Below, piece by piece: positions 78-9,841 of a stretch of 13,309 nucleotides of DNA (the stretch's first letter is position 1; every line of letters starts with the position of its first letter). Under the pieces are notes generated by a model. The model was not told where the DNA came from. It searched no databases and was given only the letters and a program-made list of their open reading frames with translations. A program made the position numbers and the translations under genes. The DNA is taken from the UHGV virus genome UHGV-0148168; one strand, 5' to 3'. Source of the stretch: a virus.

Positions 78-371
78 TTACTCACCTACCACTTCAGCGA
101 TGATATTTTTATTATTAAAGTTTTTATCGCAATACAGAACATAATTATACTGCATTACACCACCAGATTTAAGTTGTTTTTGCACTTCAGCTTTCATTTC
201 AGGACGATCACGTTCAACGATATTCATAATATCCGCTTCAATTTGAATTTCAACTTCAGTCTGATCTGCAGTCATAGACCATTCGCACAAATCTTTGTCA
301 TAACCCGCCATAGCAGGCTGAGCAGCGCAAGAAGATAAAGCAAAAATTGCAGCAAAGATAAATTTTTTCAT
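78..371 (-). CDS. sp: Spackle (Sp), periplasmic superinfection-exclusion protein that inhibits incoming gp5 lysozyme; 97 aa
   Basis: ATG start with GAGGAG Shine-Dalgarno upstream. N-terminal signal peptide MKKFIFAAIFALSSCAAQPAMA. Length 97 aa and position (two genes downstream of dmd, after gene 41) match T4 sp (61.3) as I recall it. Confidence 0.75.
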   Translation of the reverse strand: MKKFIFAAIFALSSCAAQPAMAGYDKDLCEWSMTADQTEVEIQIEADIMNIVERDRPEMKAEVQKQLKSGGVMQYNYVLYCDKNFNNKNIIAEVVGE

Positions 372-431: not shown

Positions 432-689
432 TTATTTTAAAACTTCTGCATAATCACATGTTACAAACTGTTTCTCTAACTTGGCGATTTTACGAAAGTA
501 TCTTTTGCATTGACGAATCTGTCGCTTTGTAGGGCGCACAGCAAACTTAATAAATTCCACTCGACCAAATGGAGGGCTTTCTTCTGCTGGAATATCTAGC
601 ACCAATTCCCACGTATCTGCAATAAGTGCTTTGAATTGAGTATTTTTCCTGACGTTATACGGAGTAGGTTTAAATAAAACAATATGCAT
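432..689 (-). CDS. Hypothetical basic 85-aa protein at the position of T4 gene 61.4 (between dmd and sp); function unknown
   Basis: ATG at 689..687 lies 1 nt after the dmd stop (TAA-T-ATG), with a GAGG Shine-Dalgarno inside the last dmd codons. The ORF fills the gap between dmd and sp. No motif recognised. Confidence 0.55.
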   Translation of the reverse strand: MHIVLFKPTPYNVRKNTQFKALIADTWELVLDIPAEESPPFGRVEFIKFAVRPTKRQIRQCKRYFRKIAKLEKQFVTCDYAEVLK

Positions 690-3958: not shown

Positions 3959-4801
3959 TTAATCAACTGCTATTGGATGAATAGCATTAAACTTATGAAA
4001 TGCTTCTGATTTTTCTTTACGCGAAACACACATGCGAAGAACCTTTAATGGTTCATCTTCTTCACCCAACGATTTTCGTTTTTCAATATTAGAAGTTTTC
4101 CAACGAGCTTGCTCTGGAAACTCTCTATTGATTTGCTCAAGCGCTCTATTATGTTTAGAATTACTACGAATTGAACTACATCCACCGGGAGCGTGTGATT
4201 TTCCAGATACAACTAGATATTTGAACAAGGCCAAATGCGGATAACCTTGATTAATTAAATTGAGAAATGCATACATATCTTCGCATAAATCAATTTTTCC
4301 ATACCCAATTTGTTCTGTCGTAAGTTTTCCGAGGTCATACCATGTATTCGTGAATCCATATGAGTTTTCACGATAATTACCCCAAGATGAAGTAATTTTA
4401 AAAATTGGTAGACGAGCATGACCGTGATAATACCCGCAATCCATGGCATCTTCAACATATTGAATCAATTCATAGAACTGTTCACGAGTTAATTGATTAA
4501 TTTTATCTACGCGCCGTTTATCGTCTCTCTTTCGTATTGAACTCATACGAATAGTAGTATCATCATCAATCATCCATATTCGTTGACCTGCATACATATC
4601 AGTAATTGCTTTACGAGTACCGGAAATTCCATTAACATCATCAGGAATAGTTACAATTTTAGCTCTAGACCCATAAGCATCATAATAAGCTTTTTCTTCG
4701 TGTTCACGCACTACAATATGGGGTTCATAATCAGTCGGAAACATATCAAGGGCAGAAACTGCCCCTACACGCTGATAACTTGGAATTACGAATTGAATCA
4801 T
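3959..4801 (-). CDS. Putative DNA-modifying glycosyltransferase of GT-A type, 280 aa, at the locus where T4 carries beta-glucosyltransferase
   Basis: N-terminal FVIPSYQR followed about 75 residues later by WMIDDD (DxD) is the GT-A fold signature. T4 beta-gt is 351 aa and GT-B, and does not resemble this. Placement between uvsX and gene 42 suggests a hydroxymethylcytosine glucosylation enzyme such as the T2/T6-type beta-glucosyl-HMC-alpha-glucosyltransferase (uncertain recall). Confidence 0.5.
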   Translation of the reverse strand: MIQFVIPSYQRVGAVSALDMFPTDYEPHIVVREHEEKAYYDAYGSRAKIVTIPDDVNGISGTRKAITDMYAGQRIWMIDDDTTIRMSSIRKRDDKRRVDKINQLTREQFYELIQYVEDAMDCGYYHGHARLPIFKITSSWGNYRENSYGFTNTWYDLGKLTTEQIGYGKIDLCEDMYAFLNLINQGYPHLALFKYLVVSGKSHAPGGCSSIRSNSKHNRALEQINREFPEQARWKTSNIEKRKSLGEEDEPLKVLRMCVSRKEKSEAFHKFNAIHPIAVD

Positions 4802-5439
4802 TTAAGTGCCTTACATTTGTCAAAATGGTATCTTGTCATATTTGGCCCACGTCCTTTTAGTCCGCAATGCGGACATATTTTTTCTATCAAATTATGAGGT
4901 TTTCCTTTACGATTTTTAGACATCGTTTCTTTAATTATTTTAGCTTTTTCTGCGCCAAAAATTTCTTCATAAGTTTTACCAGAATTTTCCTTTGCTCGAT
5001 TTATAATTCCATATGCCTGCTCATTTTTACCATACATTGGATTACCTTCGCCTTTCATTCTTTTAGAATGATCAGGACGCTTGATTCCACGAAAGGCATT
5101 TCCGCACTTATATCTTTCTTCTGGAGATAGTTTTTTACCGTACATTCCATTTAATTTGCCTGGAAAACTTCCTCCCCATGCTTCATTCTTTAAATTATAT
5201 GAATCCGGACAATTAGCAGCATCTAAACAAGTTAAAATAATTTCTTCAACCTGTCTAAACATTGGTCCTTCATATAATATTTCTTTATTAAAGGATTTTA
5301 TTCCATATTTCTTTTTAGCATGTTGCCAAACTACACCCGAACCATCATAATTTGGGTTGTGACCATCATGACTTCCTATATACCACTTTTTAGTTTTAGG
5401 ATGTTTATACTTATAAACATGTGGCACATTTACTTCCAT
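4798..5439 (-). CDS. GIY-YIG family homing endonuclease (Seg-like), 213 aa, with NUMOD-like repeats and a C-terminal CxxC zinc-finger-like motif
   Basis: N-terminal VYKYKHPKTKKWYIGS fits the GIY...YIG motif. Repeated G-x-YGK/basic modules (NGMYGKK, NPMYGKN) and C-terminal CPHCG...DKC. The start overlaps the gene 42 end by 10 nt and the stop overlaps the glycosyltransferase start (ATGA), with no own promoter; typical of free-standing phage homing-endonuclease genes. Confidence 0.7.
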   Translation of the reverse strand: MEVNVPHVYKYKHPKTKKWYIGSHDGHNPNYDGSGVVWQHAKKKYGIKSFNKEILYEGPMFRQVEEIILTCLDAANCPDSYNLKNEAWGGSFPGKLNGMYGKKLSPEERYKCGNAFRGIKRPDHSKRMKGEGNPMYGKNEQAYGIINRAKENSGKTYEEIFGAEKAKIIKETMSKNRKGKPHNLIEKICPHCGLKGRGPNMTRYHFDKCKALK

Positions 5440-6170
5440 TTTCCAGTATAATCCTTTTTAGCAATATGAGTTTCACCAGTGTTCCACCAATGGTCAACTA
5501 AATAAAACTGATTTTCGTACACATGAAGACTTCCAACGTTCCATATAATAGAACCTGCTTTATATTGCCGCGATGGGTCGCCTGCATTCAAATCAGATAC
5601 TAATTTATCTAGTACGTATTTTTGCCATGCATAATCATTACGATAGCCTGCCCAGCAGTCATTGCTTCTCATATTAACAACTGCATTGACTTTCTTATCA
5701 CGAATCAGGTACTGTACTGTATTAGTACACATGAAATCTGACATACCATCTTTATTGTAGTCAAATTGCATGGATGGACGAGTATAAATCATGATACCAC
5801 GTCGAGAATCAGGATTTTGACCAAGTTCAGCTAAACACATATCATACTGGGCATAGTTATCTTCTGACCAGATAGCCCAGCCATAATTCGAGTTAATTTC
5901 ACCTTTAGAAGATGCTACTTGTTGCCAAATCTTCGGTGTTTCACCCGGAATATCTTTAACGAACAAGCTCTTAGATTTATACCATTCAAGTTCACGCTGA
6001 ATGTATTCATCATTAAGAGCGCCAAAAATAAACGGTTCATCTGCTACAAATGATGCGCCAATAATTTCAATAGTTTTAACGCCAGTTTTATCAACTACGA
6101 AATCTTTTTCTTTTAATGCAAGCCCCAAATGAAGACGGATTTCTTCAACTGTCATAGAGTCATTAATCAT
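5430..6170 (-). CDS. 42: Gene 42 dCMP hydroxymethylase (thymidylate-synthase fold), 246 aa
   Basis: Length 246 aa equals T4 gp42. The sequence matches my recollection of T4 dCMP hydroxymethylase, including the FMCTNT region carrying the catalytic cysteine. GAGG Shine-Dalgarno before the ATG. Confidence 0.85.
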   Translation of the reverse strand: MINDSMTVEEIRLHLGLALKEKDFVVDKTGVKTIEIIGASFVADEPFIFGALNDEYIQRELEWYKSKSLFVKDIPGETPKIWQQVASSKGEINSNYGWAIWSEDNYAQYDMCLAELGQNPDSRRGIMIYTRPSMQFDYNKDGMSDFMCTNTVQYLIRDKKVNAVVNMRSNDCWAGYRNDYAWQKYVLDKLVSDLNAGDPSRQYKAGSIIWNVGSLHVYENQFYLVDHWWNTGETHIAKKDYTGKWK

Positions 6171-6177
6171 TTAAACC

Positions 6178-6327
6178 TCAATTGATGCATTCATATTTAA
6201 ATTGTAACAGTAATAAACCCCACCCTATGATAAGAGTTGGAATCATAGCAGGAACTGTTACGCTATAGTATATACTTATTATAACCATCAAGATTAAAAG
6301 CAATGCTGCTATAATTTTGCTTTTCAT
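6178..6327 (-). CDS. Small hydrophobic ORF, 49 aa (MKSKIIAALLLILMVIISIYYSVTVPAMIPTLIIGWGLLLLQFKYECIN), predicted membrane peptide; absent from the supplied ORF track
   Basis: Hand-translated codon by codon from the minus strand. The ATG at 6327..6325 overlaps the imm stop (ATGA); the TGA stop at 6180..6178 forms part of the gene 42 Shine-Dalgarno (TGAGG). It exactly fills the imm-42 gap and has two hydrophobic stretches. Confidence 0.45.
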   Translation of the reverse strand: MKSKIIAALLLILMVIISIYYSVTVPAMIPTLIIGWGLLLLQFKYECIN

Positions 6328-6575
6328 TCCTTCTCTCTGATGATAATTACTTGATTTGGCTGTACAGACTTTTTAGTTTCACCCGCAATTGACCAAATAA
6401 ATGTAATAAACCAACCAATAATTGACCAGTTAAACAGTAAAGATGTGAAAAAGATTCCTACTGTCGATTTTGACCCACGCATCAAGGCGATGAACCATGG
6501 AAGCATGTATATAATAATAGCCAACACACCTGAAACTAAAACCATAAAAATTGAACCTGCTACTAAAGTTTCCAT
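6324..6575 (-). CDS. imm: Imm, membrane immunity protein (superinfection exclusion, blocks DNA injection of superinfecting phage), 83 aa
   Basis: 83 aa equals the length of T4 Imm. Two hydrophobic transmembrane segments. Located between genes 43 and 42 as in T4. Its Shine-Dalgarno overlaps the stop of the upstream lipoprotein ORF. Confidence 0.7.
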   Translation of the reverse strand: METLVAGSIFMVLVSGVLAIIIYMLPWFIALMRGSKSTVGIFFTSLLFNWSIIGWFITFIWSIAGETKKSVQPNQVIIIREKE

Positions 6576-6582
6576 GTTTTCC

Positions 6583-6963
6583 TCACTTAGTCAAATTTTT
6601 TACACATGAATTATAAGAATTCACTACATACTCCATCGGAGCATTTTTACCTGTACGCAACTGGTAATTATTAGCCCAATTTGCCCAAAGCACGGCGCAG
6701 TAATTTTCAATTTTTTCTTCGCGTGTAATTACATCTGAATTACGATATGCTTGAGCAGATTCATCTGGACGAATAGCTTCGTCAAAATTCGCCTGCATTT
6801 GTTCTACTGTTTGCTTTGGAGCTTCTTTATAACACTTGACATTAGGATTATAAAATTTGCTTGAACAGTTTACAATTTTTCCTGCATCAGACTGATTTAC
6901 TACCGGTCCTTGAGCTACACAACCAGTAAGACCTAATGCAATAACCAAAATAGCGATTTTCAT
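6583..6963 (-). CDS. Predicted lipoprotein, 126 aa from the ATG at 6963 (the track's 130-aa version starts at a TTG at 6975); function unknown, possibly the imm.1 position
   Basis: MKIAILVIALGLTGC is a classical signal peptide with lipobox L-T-G-C. Four further cysteines in the mature part. GGAG Shine-Dalgarno 6 nt before the ATG. A candidate promoter lies upstream and the gene 43 terminator lies beyond it. Confidence 0.6.
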   Translation of the reverse strand: MKIAILVIALGLTGCVAQGPVVNQSDAGKIVNCSSKFYNPNVKCYKEAPKQTVEQMQANFDEAIRPDESAQAYRNSDVITREEKIENYCAVLWANWANNYQLRTGKNAPMEYVVNSYNSCVKNLTK

Positions 6964-6997
6964 TTCATTCTCCAAATCCGTATTAGTTGATAGTTGT

Positions 6998-7027
6998 ATA
7001 GTACCATGGAAGAACAGTCTTGTAAAC
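6998..7027 (-). promoter_or_regulatory. Candidate sigma70-type early promoter for the lipoprotein-imm-small ORF-42 gene string: -35 GTTTAC (7027..7022), 18-nt spacer, TGG-TACTAT -10 (7003..6998)
   Basis: Minus strand reads GTTTACAAGACTGTTCTTCCATGGTACTAT, with a TG two bases before the -10. Lies downstream of the gene 43 terminator and about 35 nt before the lipoprotein ATG. Confidence 0.45.
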
Positions 7028-7110
7028 AGTTTTGTGAAAAATTTTTTAGGGAATTCTAAGGGTCCAGAATCATCTGTTTTTCATAAGTATAGATTTATAT
7101 TACTTGTATG

Positions 7111-7131
7111 AAAAAGGGACCCGGAGGTCCC
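7111..7131 (-). terminator. Rho-independent terminator after gene 43: GGGACC-UCCG-GGUCCC hairpin followed by UUUUU
   Basis: Plus 7116..7131 gggacccggaggtccc is a perfect 6-bp inverted repeat with a 4-nt loop. On the minus strand it is followed by TTTTT (7115..7111). Begins 13 nt after the gene 43 stop codon. Confidence 0.8.
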
Positions 7132-7144
7132 TAGATTTATTCTA

Positions 7145-9841
7145 TCAGCCAAACAGGAAGTCTAACGAAGCTTTTTCCTCATAATCCATACCAGCCGATT
7201 CACACATACCCGCAAGCGGTTTAACAAACGATTTTTGGAACAAAGTTGAGTAGTCAATCCAAGATAGTACATCAGAACGAATTTCTTTTGGAAGTTCTGT
7301 GCCCGACGGCCAAGCAATGCACTTGTCACCAAATGGATTTCCTTCACGCAATGGAAGAACCATTACCTTATTTCCATCCAAAATTGGAGCTACACCTAGA
7401 CCACTAACAGCTCGACGATAAGTTAGCACACCGCGAATATGGAACGGGCATTTAAATCCTGGCCAACCTTTATCATCATATTTCGCTATATCGTTCGCAG
7501 TTTTTACTTCAGCAATAACTTTATAGTCGAGTTGACGATATTCTTTCTCAAAGTTCTTGTAGTATTCTTGGACAGACTCTTCACCTTCCTGAAGAATACG
7601 ACGAATACTTTCTTCGAGAGCTTCTTGCACTGCTTTTGGTGTTGAACTCTGCTGAGTTTCCATGCCCATGATTTTTAGATGCGGTTCAGCAAATCGCTTA
7701 TCTTCCATATCATAAACGTTCAGAGCATAACGTTTTTTCGCTTTCCAAAATCCACCAACACCCTTTGAACCAAGCGGAGGGCAAGAAATAGCTTCACGGT
7801 CCATATGCATCAGATGCTCGCGATTATTCATATAATCACATAACTCACGATATGCAACATCAATCATAGGTTCCATCTTTTTCTTACCAAACTGATTCAT
7901 GAATTCAACTAAATCATTTTGTTCTTTAAAGCGGTCAAGACCTACTTTTTCAATTACTTTATCTACACAAACATATACCGAATCAGTATCACCTGCTGCA
8001 ATGAAATCTTCATCATTAGTTCCGCATACTTTATTCAGATATTCATTAATTTTACGAGCAATCCACTGAATACCGACTTGGCCAAAAATTGTGATAGCAG
8101 TAGCATTTCGCAAATCATAGTAACGGAAATGAATATTACCAAGAGCACCATAAAGACTGTTAATAAGAATTTTACGGTTTAGCTGATTTGTATTAGCAAG
8201 TGTAGCCGCTTTTTCACATTCTTCAATCAGACTATTGAGAACAGATTCAGTATAATTCGATAGTTCATTTAAGAAATCATCACTGAACTTAACATATCGT
8301 TCAACTTCTGGTTTAGTTGAACAAGACCCTGCGCCTTTCATAATAATCTTTTTAATAGCTTCGGCATTCATTTCTTCAGCGAACATTTTCTTTTTCCAAT
8401 CTTTACGCTGGAAAAATACTTTAGCGATTTCCTTTGGAATGATACCTTCTTGATGCTTATCATACATCCATCCATTCGGAGAACAAGAATATTCATCACT
8501 CGGTTTAGGAGCTGTTCCTGCGATATATTCATGAATTGGATGAACTTTAAACTGCCCACGAATAGTCTCAGGACTAATGTTAACCTGACGAATAATGCTC
8601 GGATACAGAGACGTCAAGTCAAAACTCATAATATATCGACGAGCAATTGGTTTAGGTTCAAACACAAATGCACCCGGAAAACTCTGTTTAACGTGCGAAC
8701 CTTGTTGAGGAATAACCTTATGTTCACCTTTCAATGAGTTAAAAATAATAGCATCCCAAGTTTTAATAGGACTCATTACACCGGAAAAAGGCATTTTAGC
8801 GTAATAAGACATACTTAAAACTAGATCGATAAACCCACGAATTTTATCAATTGCTTGAACTGATTCTACGTCAATGATGTTATAACTAATGTATCGTTGA
8901 TGATTAGTCTCACGAAGTTTATTAATAGGACCGTCGTATGGTAATTTACCTTTTTTGGTTTCATGCTGAGCAACTGATTCCAAAGAGAATGACGGCAAAT
9001 TAGTAAAAGCGAATTTCTTGTACAAATCTAAATAATCAAGAATAGATACGCCATCAATAGAATAAATTTCTTTGCTACCGTACATATTTTGAATTAGTTT
9101 AGATTTTACCCGACCGATTGGAGAGAAGCGTTTCATACTACGTTCGCCCAGAATCATTTTAACACGATTCATGATATACGGAACGTCAAACCCCTCAATA
9201 TTCCAACCGGTAAAAATAGCAGGTCGTTTCTGTTCCCAGAGATTGATATATTCCATGAGCATATCACGCTCATTATCGAATGGCATATAAATTACTCTGT
9301 CAAGAATTTCTTGAGGAACTTCATCACCACCTTCACAGTCAAGCTTAGCAGCTAACTTTGCATCCCATTTTGATACTGAACCGTACATTGAATTCAAAAG
9401 GTCGAAAACATAAAAACGATCGTCAATTGAATCATAATGAGTGATAGCATCAATTTCATATTCAGCTTTCATTGGGTCAGGAAATTTATCACCAGTAACC
9501 TCAATATCACAGTTAGCTACACGAACAAATTTTCGGTCATAAACAATTTCTGAACCATACGTATCACTGATATAAGCGAGTTTAAAATCGTTCATACCAA
9601 GAGCTTCGAGACCGATGTCTTCCATTCGCTTCATCCAATCTCGAGCATCTTTCATTGATTGAAATTTTTGAGGAGCGCAATTTTTACCATAAATGTCTTT
9701 GTACTTTGACTCTTCCTTACAATGCCTAAACATAGTCGGAAGATATTCTACTTCACGAGTACGTTCCTTTCCGTTTTCATCAATATAACGTTCAACAATG
9801 TTATTTCCGACTGTTTCGATAGAGATATAAAATTCTTTCAT
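7145..9841 (-). CDS. 43: Gene 43 DNA polymerase (family B, with 3'-5' exonuclease), 898 aa
   Basis: 898 aa equals T4 gp43. N-terminus MKEFYISIETVGNNIVERYIDENGKERTREVEY matches my recollection of T4 gp43. Exo I motif CDIEV, pol motif A DLTSLYPS, motif B KILINSLYGALG, motif C GDTDS. Confidence 0.96.
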   Translation of the reverse strand: MKEFYISIETVGNNIVERYIDENGKERTREVEYLPTMFRHCKEESKYKDIYGKNCAPQKFQSMKDARDWMKRMEDIGLEALGMNDFKLAYISDTYGSEIVYDRKFVRVANCDIEVTGDKFPDPMKAEYEIDAITHYDSIDDRFYVFDLLNSMYGSVSKWDAKLAAKLDCEGGDEVPQEILDRVIYMPFDNERDMLMEYINLWEQKRPAIFTGWNIEGFDVPYIMNRVKMILGERSMKRFSPIGRVKSKLIQNMYGSKEIYSIDGVSILDYLDLYKKFAFTNLPSFSLESVAQHETKKGKLPYDGPINKLRETNHQRYISYNIIDVESVQAIDKIRGFIDLVLSMSYYAKMPFSGVMSPIKTWDAIIFNSLKGEHKVIPQQGSHVKQSFPGAFVFEPKPIARRYIMSFDLTSLYPSIIRQVNISPETIRGQFKVHPIHEYIAGTAPKPSDEYSCSPNGWMYDKHQEGIIPKEIAKVFFQRKDWKKKMFAEEMNAEAIKKIIMKGAGSCSTKPEVERYVKFSDDFLNELSNYTESVLNSLIEECEKAATLANTNQLNRKILINSLYGALGNIHFRYYDLRNATAITIFGQVGIQWIARKINEYLNKVCGTNDEDFIAAGDTDSVYVCVDKVIEKVGLDRFKEQNDLVEFMNQFGKKKMEPMIDVAYRELCDYMNNREHLMHMDREAISCPPLGSKGVGGFWKAKKRYALNVYDMEDKRFAEPHLKIMGMETQQSSTPKAVQEALEESIRRILQEGEESVQEYYKNFEKEYRQLDYKVIAEVKTANDIAKYDDKGWPGFKCPFHIRGVLTYRRAVSGLGVAPILDGNKVMVLPLREGNPFGDKCIAWPSGTELPKEIRSDVLSWIDYSTLFQKSFVKPLAGMCESAGMDYEEKASLDFLFG

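What the first reader, a model, noticed from the sequence alone, without database searches (positions are those of the whole stretch)
6178..7131. Envelope-targeted three-gene cassette (lipoprotein, Imm, 49-aa membrane peptide) with its own promoter, set between DNA polymerase and dCMP hydroxymethylase
Between the gene 43 terminator (7111..7131) and gene 42 lie a candidate early promoter (6998..7027), a 126-aa predicted lipoprotein (lipobox LTGC, four further cysteines), the 83-aa Imm membrane protein and an uncalled 49-aa hydrophobic ORF. Their starts and stops are chained (SD-over-stop, then ATGA). Imm is a known superinfection-exclusion factor; the other two have no function I can assign. 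Three translationally linked envelope proteins in the middle of the replication genes could act together on the cell envelope, for example in exclusion of superinfecting phage or membrane remodelling.
Basis: partly seen in the sequence, partly recalled or inferred. Interest (0 to 1): 0.7.

Follow-up and report, generated by a model that had tools for sequence, protein, structure and literature searches.

The report
T4 imm.1–imm–42.1 early envelope genes
This is the already annotated imm.1–imm–42.1 early gene cluster of a T4-type phage: three small cell-envelope proteins made from one early promoter, of which only Imm has a known job (blocking DNA entry of a second phage), and related phages show that the three are separable modules and not one obligate machine.

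Summary
On the minus strand, between DNA polymerase (gene 43) and dCMP hydroxymethylase (gene 42), lie a terminator, an early-type promoter, and three chained ORFs. These are a 126-aa lipoprotein (T4 Imm.1, DUF5481/phrog_1754), the 83-aa Imm (PF14373) and a 49-aa hydrophobic peptide. The window is 99.5% identical to Shigella phage SHFML-11.

None of this is new. RB32, RB14 and RB51 annotate the peptide as 42.1, RB69 as ORF054c, and it has family models (phrog_3610, PF26865). It is simply unannotated in T4 and T6.

- The translational chain runs on into gene 42.
- The experimentally mapped MotA-dependent middle promoter P42 lies inside 42.1.

Across Tevenvirinae the lipoprotein (L), Imm (I) and the peptide (S) occur as L-I-S, I-S-L, L-I without S, and L-S with no Imm detected. 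In RB69-type phages L-I sits next to spackle while S stays by gene 43. Published work shows Imm alone excludes T4 by binding the tape-measure protein. A T4 knock-down screen scored imm.1 as "Not Fit".

The genes are therefore co-regulated, separable envelope modules. Imm.1 and 42.1 remain uncharacterised; a role in protecting the infected envelope is a guess. Verdict: already known, modest interest.

The parts
7110..7132 (-). Intrinsic terminator after gene 43 (stem-loop 7132..7115, T-run 7114..7110)
   Evidence: 7-bp stem, 5 G-C pairs, TTTTT tail. (-13.9 kcal/mol, z -3.25). Conserved in T4, RB32 and T6.
6998..7027 (-). T4 early-type sigma-70 promoter: GTTTACA (7027..7021), 17-nt spacer, TG (7006..7005), TACTAT (7003..6998)
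   Evidence: for the consensus match, which is not above chance by itself. Identical in T4 and RB32; T6 differs only in the spacer. A similar GTTTAC(A/T)-17-TAnTAT (or close variant) site precedes the first cassette gene in most other lineages checked. T4 imm.1 is early RNA and early protein. The transcription start was not mapped here.
6583..6963 (-). imm.1: 126-aa lipoprotein precursor. Signal peptide with lipobox LTGC (Cys15), +2 residue Val, an unstructured tether, and a C-terminal helical domain with invariant Cys89 and Cys120. Shine-Dalgarno GGAG at 6973..6970.
   Evidence: Pfam DUF5481, E 6.9e-69, 229 bits. phrog_1754, E 1.1e-41. 96.8% identical to T4 Imm.1. AlphaFold2 gave mean pLDDT 72; the last 45 residues score 93-96 and residues 1-50 are low. 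Lipobox present in 33 of 34 family members, with no Asp at +2. pN/pS 0.06.
6324..6575 (-). imm: 83-aa inner-membrane superinfection-immunity protein. Its Shine-Dalgarno GAGG overlaps the imm.1 stop codon.
   Evidence: Pfam PF14373, E 7.8e-16, 58 bits against a cut-off of 27.9. phrog_1039. 97.6-100% identical to Imm of T4-type phages. R33 and W50, the residues whose mutation lowered exclusion in the 2026 preprint, are invariant in alignment A3.
6178..6327 (-). 42.1: 49-aa peptide with two hydrophobic segments (about 5-23 and 27-43) and the invariant motif P-x-M-I-P-T...W...Q...C-x-N. Its start overlaps the imm stop (ATGA). Its stop overlaps the Shine-Dalgarno of gene 42.
   Evidence: phrog_3610, E 3.4e-26. 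Annotated as 42.1 in RB32. ORF intact in T4. Conserved in five lineages with saturated synonymous sites. Invariant columns. Relatives carry PF26865 and all named ones are from T4-like phages. Hydropathy.
6271..6304 (-). MotA-dependent middle promoter P42 inside the 42.1 ORF: MotA box ATTGCTTTT (6304..6296), 12-nt spacer, TATAAT (6283..6278), start site at about 6271
   Evidence: Sequence read and identical in T4. Hinton 2010 (PMC2988021, Table 1) lists the P42 start site at T4 26320. By the offset between locus L004 and the window this is window 6271, an A 7 nt after the -10. The start lies 54 nt downstream of the 42.1 ATG, so P42 transcripts cannot encode full-length 42.1.
5430..6170 (-). Gene 42 (dCMP hydroxymethylase), translationally chained to 42.1; context
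7145..9841 (-). Gene 43 (DNA polymerase); context
78..371 (-). sp (spackle), the other T4 superinfection-exclusion gene, 6 kb away in this window; context
   Evidence: Pfam T4_Spackle, E 1.6e-44. Annotated in SHFML-11.

Best explanation
The region is the T-even phage early gene cluster imm.1-imm-42.1.

How it is expressed:
- Right after infection, host RNA polymerase starts at an early promoter placed just behind the gene 43 terminator.
- The transcript carries three small envelope proteins and runs on into gene 42.
- Once MotA/AsiA appear, the mapped middle promoter P42, which lies inside 42.1, transcribes gene 42 without the three upstream genes. The envelope genes are thus an early-only burst. 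This timing is inferred from the promoter layout and the published P42 start site.

What each product does:
- Imm (shown by others): it inserts in the inner membrane and binds the helical-bundle domain of the tape-measure protein gp29 of a later-arriving phage. This blocks the DNA conduit.
- Imm.1 (inferred): it is exported, lipid-modified at Cys15 and, having no Asp at +2, sorted to the inner face of the outer membrane. From there a flexible tether of about 35 residues holds a small disulfide-stapled helical domain in the periplasm.
- gp42.1 (inferred): a two-segment hairpin peptide in the inner membrane.

How they relate: the three are independent, co-regulated modules and not an obligate complex, because related phages keep them in every pairwise combination. 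My committed guess for Imm.1, and more weakly for 42.1, is an Imm-independent contribution to protecting the freshly infected envelope from further T-even attack (exclusion or resistance to lysis from without). I put that guess at about 0.3.
For: Identity:
- 99.5% DNA identity to Shigella phage SHFML-11. 517 phage records match and 499 cover at least 80% of the query.
- Family matches. Annotations in RB32, T6, T4 and RB69.

Expression:
- Conserved early promoter.
- T4 imm.1 classed as early RNA and early protein; imm as middle RNA and early protein.
- P42 start site at T4 26320, equal to window 6271, inside 42.1.

Imm mechanism: cryo-EM and co-purification of the TMP-Imm complex, and exclusion by plasmid-borne Imm (bioRxiv 10.64898/2026.03.06.709160).

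Imm.1 anatomy:
- Lipobox in 33 of 34 relatives. The +2 residue is A, V, Q, S or H, never D. Mature chains carry mostly 2 or 4 cysteines (one has 3).
- Two cysteines are invariant.
- Model with a disordered first 50 residues and a confident helical hairpin at 81-125.

Modularity, with L = lipoprotein, I = Imm, S = 42.1:
- L-I-S in Tequatrovirus.
- I-S-L in Dhakavirus and Gaprivervirus.
- L-I without S in Gelderlandvirus and Jiaodavirus.
- L-I beside sp, with S left by gene 43, in RB69 and JK45.
- L-(arabinose-5-P isomerase)-S in LC53, EcS1 and Q7622 (no imm adjacent to L in any; none found in the ~150 kb of LC53 scanned, nor in the sp-to-43 region of Q7622; the rest of EcS1 was not scanned).
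- Sources.

Selection: pN/pS is 0.06 for L and I, and 0.2-0.4 for S.
Against: - No experiment assigns a function to Imm.1 or 42.1.
- imm.1 knock-down was 'Not Fit' in the T4 CRISPRi-ART screen, so any role is dispensable or conditional under laboratory conditions.
- Outer-membrane sorting rests only on the E. coli +2 rule, and lipid modification was not tested.
- The early promoter's start site was not mapped here, and the consensus match alone is at chance level.
- Adjacency of L and I may be inherited synteny. Outside T4-like phages only 2 of 56 Imm-domain loci have a neighbouring lipobox ORF.
- The LC53 genome was scanned over about 87% of its length. The unscanned 22 kb is a structural-gene block, but an Imm gene there is not formally excluded.
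Confidence: 0.8

Rival explanations
1. One reading: the lipoprotein, Imm and the 49-aa peptide assemble into one trans-envelope exclusion or remodelling device, and their translational coupling sets its stoichiometry.
For: - The ORFs are chained and share one promoter.
- L sits next to I in every Imm-bearing T4-like locus examined.
- Counts match: 502 and 155 records for L against 502 and 156 for I. In Klebsiella phages the counts are 135 against 135.
- The L-I pair moved together to sit beside sp in RB69-type phages.
Against: - S is absent from Gelderlandvirus, Jiaodavirus and L029-type loci that keep L-I. No Klebsiella phage appears among the S hits.
- L and S persist in LC53, where no Imm was found.
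- Coupling is lost in RB69-type phages, and in the window it extends into gene 42.
- Imm alone excludes T4 and binds its target.
- imm.1 knock-down is 'Not Fit' while imm is 'Fit'.
Confidence: 0.12
2. Imm.1 is a receptor-masking lipoprotein in the manner of T5 Llp or the Cor proteins. It would block the phage's own outer-membrane receptor, preventing re-adsorption or the loss of progeny on debris.
For: It is a predicted outer-membrane lipoprotein made early. The analogy with Llp rests on established knowledge of T5.
Against: - Imm.1 is 96.8-98.4% identical among T4, T6, RB32 and this phage, and 97.6% to T2. By established knowledge these phages use different protein receptors (OmpC, Tsx, FadL).
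- No fold or sequence similarity to any solved protein was found.
Confidence: 0.08
3. The 49-aa ORF is not a gene. The DNA is conserved only as the P42 middle promoter and the 5' leader of gene 42.
For: The mapped P42 promoter and start site lie inside the ORF. The T4 and T6 records do not annotate it.
Against: - The ORF is kept, at 45-49 aa with the same motif and C-terminus, where gene 42 is not downstream: VR26, JS98, RB69/JK45, LC53.
- Synonymous sites are saturated while pN is 0.22-0.36.
- It always starts at or overlapping the upstream stop codon.
- It has its own family models, phrog_3610 and PF26865.
Confidence: 0.03

Closest known systems
Bacteriophage T4 imm.1 - imm - (42.1) - 42 locus (also T2, T6, RB32, SHFML-11)
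   Same: Same genes, order, junctions, terminator, early promoter and P42 middle promoter. DNA identity is 97.5-99.5% to the listed relatives (T6, RB32, SHFML-11). Against T4 the proteins are 88-98% identical and the aligned intergenic and 42.1 DNA is nearly identical.
   Different: Only point differences. For example, a one-base difference from T4 at the imm.1/imm junction closes the T4-specific 94-aa extended Imm frame.
RB69-type (Mosigvirus) 61.4 - imm.1 - imm - sp cluster
   Same: Homologous lipoprotein (32% identity, phrog_1754) directly upstream of imm, with the same early-promoter motif in front.
   Different: The pair lies next to spackle, about 10 kb from gene 43. Each gene has its own promoter and there is no translational coupling. 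The 42.1 homologue stays by gene 43 among arabinose-pathway genes.
T4 Spackle (Sp), the periplasmic inhibitor of the gp5 tail lysozyme
   Same: A small, early, exported T-even protein acting in the periplasm. It is encoded in the same window and sits adjacent to imm.1-imm in RB69-type phages.
T5 Llp and Cor-type phage lipoproteins (receptor blockers)
   Same: Phage-encoded, early-made lipoproteins of the Gram-negative envelope used for exclusion (established knowledge).
   Different: Imm.1 is nearly invariant across T-even phages that use different receptors. No similarity was found.
HK97 gp15 and pore-forming colicin immunity proteins
   Same: These are the working analogues of Imm named in the 2026 preprint: inner-membrane proteins that block a pore-forming or tape-measure element.
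   Different: They relate to Imm only. Neither comes with a dedicated lipoprotein or a 49-aa partner.

Membership tests
Imm_superinfect (Pfam PF14373) / phrog_1039: T4 Imm | Profile match above the curated cut-off | tested here: met
   58.1 bits against a cut-off of 27.9, E 7.8e-16. phrog_1039, E 8.4e-32.
Imm_superinfect (Pfam PF14373) / phrog_1039: T4 Imm | Functionally important residues R33 and W50 (mutants lose exclusion) | tested here: met
   Both are present in the window protein and invariant across six genera in alignment A3. Mutant data are in the preprint.
Imm_superinfect (Pfam PF14373) / phrog_1039: T4 Imm | Excludes superinfecting T-even phage; binds the gp29 tape-measure protein | not testable with these tools
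   Shown for T4 Imm, which is 97.6% identical. Not tested for this allele.
Imm.1 family (Pfam DUF5481 / phrog_1754) | Profile match above the curated cut-off | tested here: met
   229.2 bits against a cut-off of 27. phrog_1754, E 1.1e-41. Divergent 122-167-aa relatives also match phrog_1754.
Imm.1 family (Pfam DUF5481 / phrog_1754) | N-terminal lipobox and the two conserved cysteines of the C-terminal helical hairpin | tested here: met
   L-T-G-C15, with C89 and C120 invariant in 34 sequences.
Bacterial lipoprotein (signal peptidase II substrate, Lol-sorted to the outer membrane) | Positively charged N-region, hydrophobic core, and an [LVI][ASTVI][GAS]C lipobox at residues 12-15 | tested here: met
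   MKIAILVIALGLTGC. The Pfam LPAM_1 match is weak, E 0.42. No dedicated predictor such as LipoP or SignalP was available.
Bacterial lipoprotein (signal peptidase II substrate, Lol-sorted to the outer membrane) | Diacylglyceryl modification, globomycin-sensitive cleavage, outer-membrane location | not testable with these tools
   Only the +2 rule could be applied: Val at +2, and no Asp in any of 33 relatives.
gp42.1 family (phrog_3610 / Pfam PF26865) | Profile match and the conserved P-x-M-I-P-T...W...Q...C-x-N motif | tested here: met
   phrog_3610, E 3.4e-26. Invariant columns. PF26865 is precomputed on all 22 relatives found. The local Pfam copy did not report this model.
gp42.1 family (phrog_3610 / Pfam PF26865) | Translated, membrane-inserted product | not testable with these tools
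   Only evolutionary evidence of coding and hydropathy.
T4 early promoter class | GTTTAC -35, 17-bp spacer, TGn, TATAAT-like -10 | tested here: met
   GTTTACA-17-TGg-TACTAT, with the -10 matching 4 of 6. Conserved across genera.
T4 early promoter class | Transcription start used immediately after infection without phage proteins | not tested
   Indirect only: imm.1 RNA and protein are classed as early in T4.
T4 middle (MotA/AsiA-dependent) promoter P42 | MotA box near -30, 11-13-bp spacer, a -10 of form TAnnnT, and a mapped start site | tested here: met
   ATTGCTTTT, 12 nt, TATAAT, identical to T4. The published start at T4 26320 falls on the A 7 nt after the -10.
   L-I without S, L-S without a detected I, and L-I separated from S were all found.

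The most novel reading that the evidence does not exclude
Imm.1 is a third superinfection-exclusion or envelope-protection factor of T-even phages that acts independently of Imm. It would be an outer-membrane-tethered periplasmic helical domain that intercepts a part of an incoming tail, such as the ejected tape-measure protein or the gp5/gp27 tip, before it reaches the inner membrane. gp42.1 would be a further inner-membrane modulator. The early-promoter slot just downstream of gene 43 would then be a general landing pad for such envelope genes. In 326 phage records that slot also holds an extra 78-aa secreted ORF.
Probability: 0.3. Interest if true: 0.55.

Novelty: already known. Interest (0 to 1): 0.3.

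Why it matters
T4 superinfection exclusion is a textbook phenomenon. The mechanism of Imm has only just been worked out, and that work did not consider the neighbouring genes. Imm.1 is a strongly conserved, early-expressed lipoprotein present in every T4-like lineage examined here, and 42.1 is an unannotated peptide in the T4 reference genome. Both remain without a function.

The comparative map made here says which experiments are worth doing: test Imm.1 and 42.1 separately, and do not assume a complex with Imm. It also warns that deletions of 42.1 will remove the P42 promoter of an essential gene. Beyond that, the locus is ordinary and well annotated.

Tried and rejected
- **Other libraries.** NCBIfam and PADLOC gave nothing for any of the three proteins. 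Rfam found nothing in the region.
- **Is 42.1 a fragment or paralogue of Imm?** Rejected: hhalign probability 2.5%.
- **Is an Imm-plus-lipoprotein pairing general to the Imm_superinfect family?** Rejected: 2 of 56 non-T4-like loci.
- **My own interim idea** that conserved L-I adjacency through rearrangements shows a functional partnership. I downgraded it after finding lineages with L and S next to gene 43 but no adjacent imm (LC53 scanned over ~150 kb with none found).
- **Searches that failed or were limited.** The search for related loci with the divergent lipoprotein alignment failed for lack of a conserved stretch. A single-sequence protein search returned only near-identical proteins. 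The T4 genome review (Miller 2003, PMC150520) is not held. No paper mentions DUF5481. The only phage paper using 'Imm.1' lists it, without test, as exclusion-related and absent from the RB69 group; RB69 in fact has a divergent copy.
Full report
**What the window is.** A 1.1-kb query spanning the finding matches 517 phage records. The best is Shigella phage SHFML-11 at 99.5%, and T6 and RB32 are at about 97.5%. All genes run on the minus strand in the T4 order: 45, 44, 62, regA, 43, [finding], 42, a homing-endonuclease-like ORF, a glucosyltransferase, uvsX, 40, 41, dmd, 61.4, sp. The finding is the T4 locus imm.1 - imm - 42.

**Checking the observation.**
- Read from the sequence, imm.1 starts at the ATG at 6963 behind GGAG. 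Its TGA stop is part of the GAGG that serves imm (ATG 6575). imm and the 49-aa ORF overlap in ATGA.
- The 49-aa ORF's TGA is again part of a GAGG that serves gene 42 (ATG 6170). The chain therefore does not stop at the cassette.
- The terminator is a 7-bp G+C-rich hairpin with a U-run: -13.9 kcal/mol, z = -3.25.
- The promoter (GTTTACA, 17 nt, TGg, TACTAT) is one of six consensus matches in a region where shuffles give 5.6. The match alone means nothing.
- The promoter is nevertheless credible for three reasons. It is identical in T4 and RB32, and T6 differs only in the spacer. A GTTTAC(A/T)-17-TAnTAT (or close variant) site sits 30-45 nt before the first cassette gene in most genera examined, whichever gene comes first. 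In a T4 time-course, imm.1 is classed as early RNA and early protein, so the protein is made.

**Identity of the three products.**
- Imm.1 matches Pfam DUF5481 (229 bits) and phrog_1754. Imm matches PF14373 and phrog_1039. The 49-aa peptide matches phrog_3610.
- The peptide is annotated as 42.1 in RB32 and in RB14 and RB51. Its relatives carry Pfam PF26865.
- It is merely missing from the T4 and T6 records, where the ORF is intact.
- It is a real gene. Five lineages keep a 45-49-aa ORF with the invariant pattern P-x-M-I-P-T...W...Q...C-x-N. Synonymous sites are saturated (pS 0.6-0.8) and pN is 0.22-0.36.
- imm.1 and imm are under strong purifying selection, with pN/pS 0.06.

Inside the 42.1 ORF lies a near-perfect MotA-dependent middle promoter: ATTGCTTTT, 12 nt, TATAAT. 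It is identical in T4. Hinton's review lists middle promoter P42 with its start site at T4 26320 (PMC2988021). By the coordinate offset this is window 6271, an A 7 nt after the -10 and 54 nt downstream of the 42.1 start codon. Gene 42 therefore has its own middle-mode transcript, which cannot encode full-length 42.1. The three envelope genes depend on the early promoter or on read-through from gene 43.

**Anatomy of Imm.1.**
- The family is small: 28 clusters at 50% identity among 1.84 billion representative proteins.
- Of 34 aligned members, 33 have a lipobox. The residue after the lipid-modified Cys is A, V, Q, S or H and never Asp. Mature chains carry mostly two or four cysteines (one has three), and two are invariant. 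By the E. coli +2 rule this predicts an outer-membrane lipoprotein facing the periplasm.
- AlphaFold2 with the 34-sequence alignment gives a disordered first ~50 residues and a helical C-terminal domain. Its last hairpin (residues 81-125, holding C89 and C120) scores pLDDT 93-96.
- No solved or viral predicted structure resembles it.

**Do the three genes belong together?** I wrote L for the lipoprotein, I for Imm and S for 42.1, and mapped them with HMMs in reference genomes and in 80 IMG/VR loci fetched with an Imm profile.

| Lineage | Arrangement |
|---|---|
| Tequatrovirus | 43 / L-I-S / 42 |
| Dhakavirus, Gaprivervirus | 43 / I-S-L (one Dhakavirus-like locus, L024, lacks S) |
| Gelderlandvirus, Jiaodavirus, one Citrobacter-phage-like group | L-I with no S |
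| RB69 and JK45 | 61.4 / L-I / sp; S remains by gene 43 among arabinose-pathway genes |

- Record counts agree. There are 502 Tequatrovirus and 155 RB69-type records with this L, against 502 and 156 with Imm. For Klebsiella phages the counts are 135 and 135.
- At that point L-I looked like a conserved pair. Following the divergent L hits changed this view. Serratia phage LC53, Escherichia phage EcS1 and Enterobacter phage Q7622 have 43 / promoter-L-(arabinose-5-P isomerase)-S with no imm next to L.
- Scanning 150 of the 172 kb of LC53, and the whole sp-to-43 region of Q7622, found no Imm homologue.
- Outside T4-like phages, Imm-domain genes have neither L nor S, and only 2 of 56 have any neighbouring lipobox ORF.
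- Every pairwise combination therefore exists. L, not Imm, is the member found in every T4-like lineage examined, usually in the slot just behind gene 43.

**Published function.**
- A 2026 preprint shows that T4 Imm co-purifies with, and was resolved by cryo-EM bound to, the helical-bundle domain of the tape-measure protein gp29. Imm expressed alone from a plasmid lowers T4 plating, and R33A and W50A weaken this. Both residues are invariant in my Imm alignment.
- The preprint does not mention a lipoprotein or Imm.1.
- In the CRISPRi-ART T4 screen, guides on the imm.1 start were 'Not Fit' (-0.77), imm was 'Fit' (1.40) and gene 42 was 'Fit' (3.41).
- The only phage paper I found using the name Imm.1 lists it, untested, as exclusion-related and absent from the RB69 group. 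RB69 in fact has a 32%-identical copy.

**Interpretation.** The locus is an early-promoter slot that delivers small envelope proteins in the first minutes of infection. After that, P42 takes over for gene 42. Imm's role is established. Imm.1 and 42.1 are conserved, expressed or at least selected, envelope-targeted and separable from Imm. Their chaining is the usual tight packing of T4 early genes and not evidence of a complex. In RB69-type phages the same genes have separate promoters and 60-70-nt spacers. My best guess for Imm.1 is an Imm-independent periplasmic contribution to protecting the infected envelope. I hold that at about 0.3 because nothing tests it. A receptor-masking role is unlikely, because Imm.1 is 97-98% identical among T2, T4 and T6, which by established knowledge use different receptors.

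**Verdict.** The feature is already known and annotated, with two members of unknown function. Interest is modest. It lies in a clean, testable lead beside a freshly solved mechanism, and in the practical warning that 42.1 overlaps the promoter of an essential gene.

Noticed in passing
window 6271-6304 (minus strand): The experimentally mapped T4 middle promoter P42 (MotA box, -10, start site T4 26320) lies inside the 42.1 coding sequence. The same DNA therefore codes for a conserved peptide and drives an essential gene. On P42 transcripts the invariant Met28 would be the first in-frame ATG of the conserved half of 42.1, but it has no obvious Shine-Dalgarno.
   Followed up: yes
L002 1741-1977 (Escherichia phage U115); same site as window ~6964-6975: Many Tequatroviruses carry a 250-bp insertion between the early promoter and imm.1. 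It encodes a 78-aa protein with an N-terminal signal peptide (phrog_4189) and is found in 326 phage records. This is a fourth exported gene in the same slot, and it reuses the imm.1 ribosome-binding site and the first codons 'ATGAAAAT'. It is absent from this window, T4, T6 and RB32.
   Followed up: partly
window 4798-5439 (minus strand): A 213-aa ORF sits between gene 42 and the glucosyltransferase gene and overlaps both neighbours. It matches homing-endonuclease families (phrog_314, E 1.8e-31; weak NUMOD3 motif). RB32 has no such ORF: there gene 42 overlaps the glucosyltransferase gene directly. In T6 a ~53-nt gap separates them. It is probably a mobile insertion.
   Followed up: partly
window 6847-6875 (minus strand), inside imm.1: This is the best sigma-70 consensus match in the region (TTGTAA-17-TATAAT, 10 of 12), about 270 nt upstream of imm. 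Both hexamers are kept in T4, RB32, T6 and SHFML-11 (T6 has one spacer change). It could be an internal promoter for imm or simply a consequence of coding conservation.
   Followed up: partly
window 6576-6600 versus L004 4626-4660 (T4): T4 has one extra base at the imm.1/imm junction. This shortens Imm.1 by one residue and opens an upstream ATG giving a 94-aa Imm, the form used for cryo-EM in the 2026 preprint. In this window that upstream frame hits a TAA. The extension is therefore absent here, and the 83-aa start is the one shared with T4.
   Followed up: partly
L004 / NC_000866 (T4 RefSeq) and NC_054931 (T2): RefSeq names imm.1 'iduronate sulfatase', and several records name it 'immunity protein'. 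Gene 42 is named 'thymidylate synthase'. The names for imm.1 have no support in any search made here.
   Followed up: no
L097-L099 (Serratia phage LC53), L095 (EcS1), L100 (Enterobacter phage Q7622): These T4-like genera keep spackle (annotated in LC53 and Q7622), the Imm.1-type lipoprotein and 42.1, but no Imm homologue was found in the parts scanned. In LC53, EcS1 and RB69-type phages 42.1 is translationally overlapped with an arabinose-5-phosphate isomerase gene of the DNA-arabinosylation cluster. In Q7622 it overlaps the unannotated gene in the same position.
   Followed up: partly
window 432-689 (minus strand): This is the gene 61.4 homologue (85 aa, DUF7279, phrog_2375), lying between dmd and sp. 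In RB69 the imm.1-imm pair lies between 61.4 and sp.
   Followed up: no
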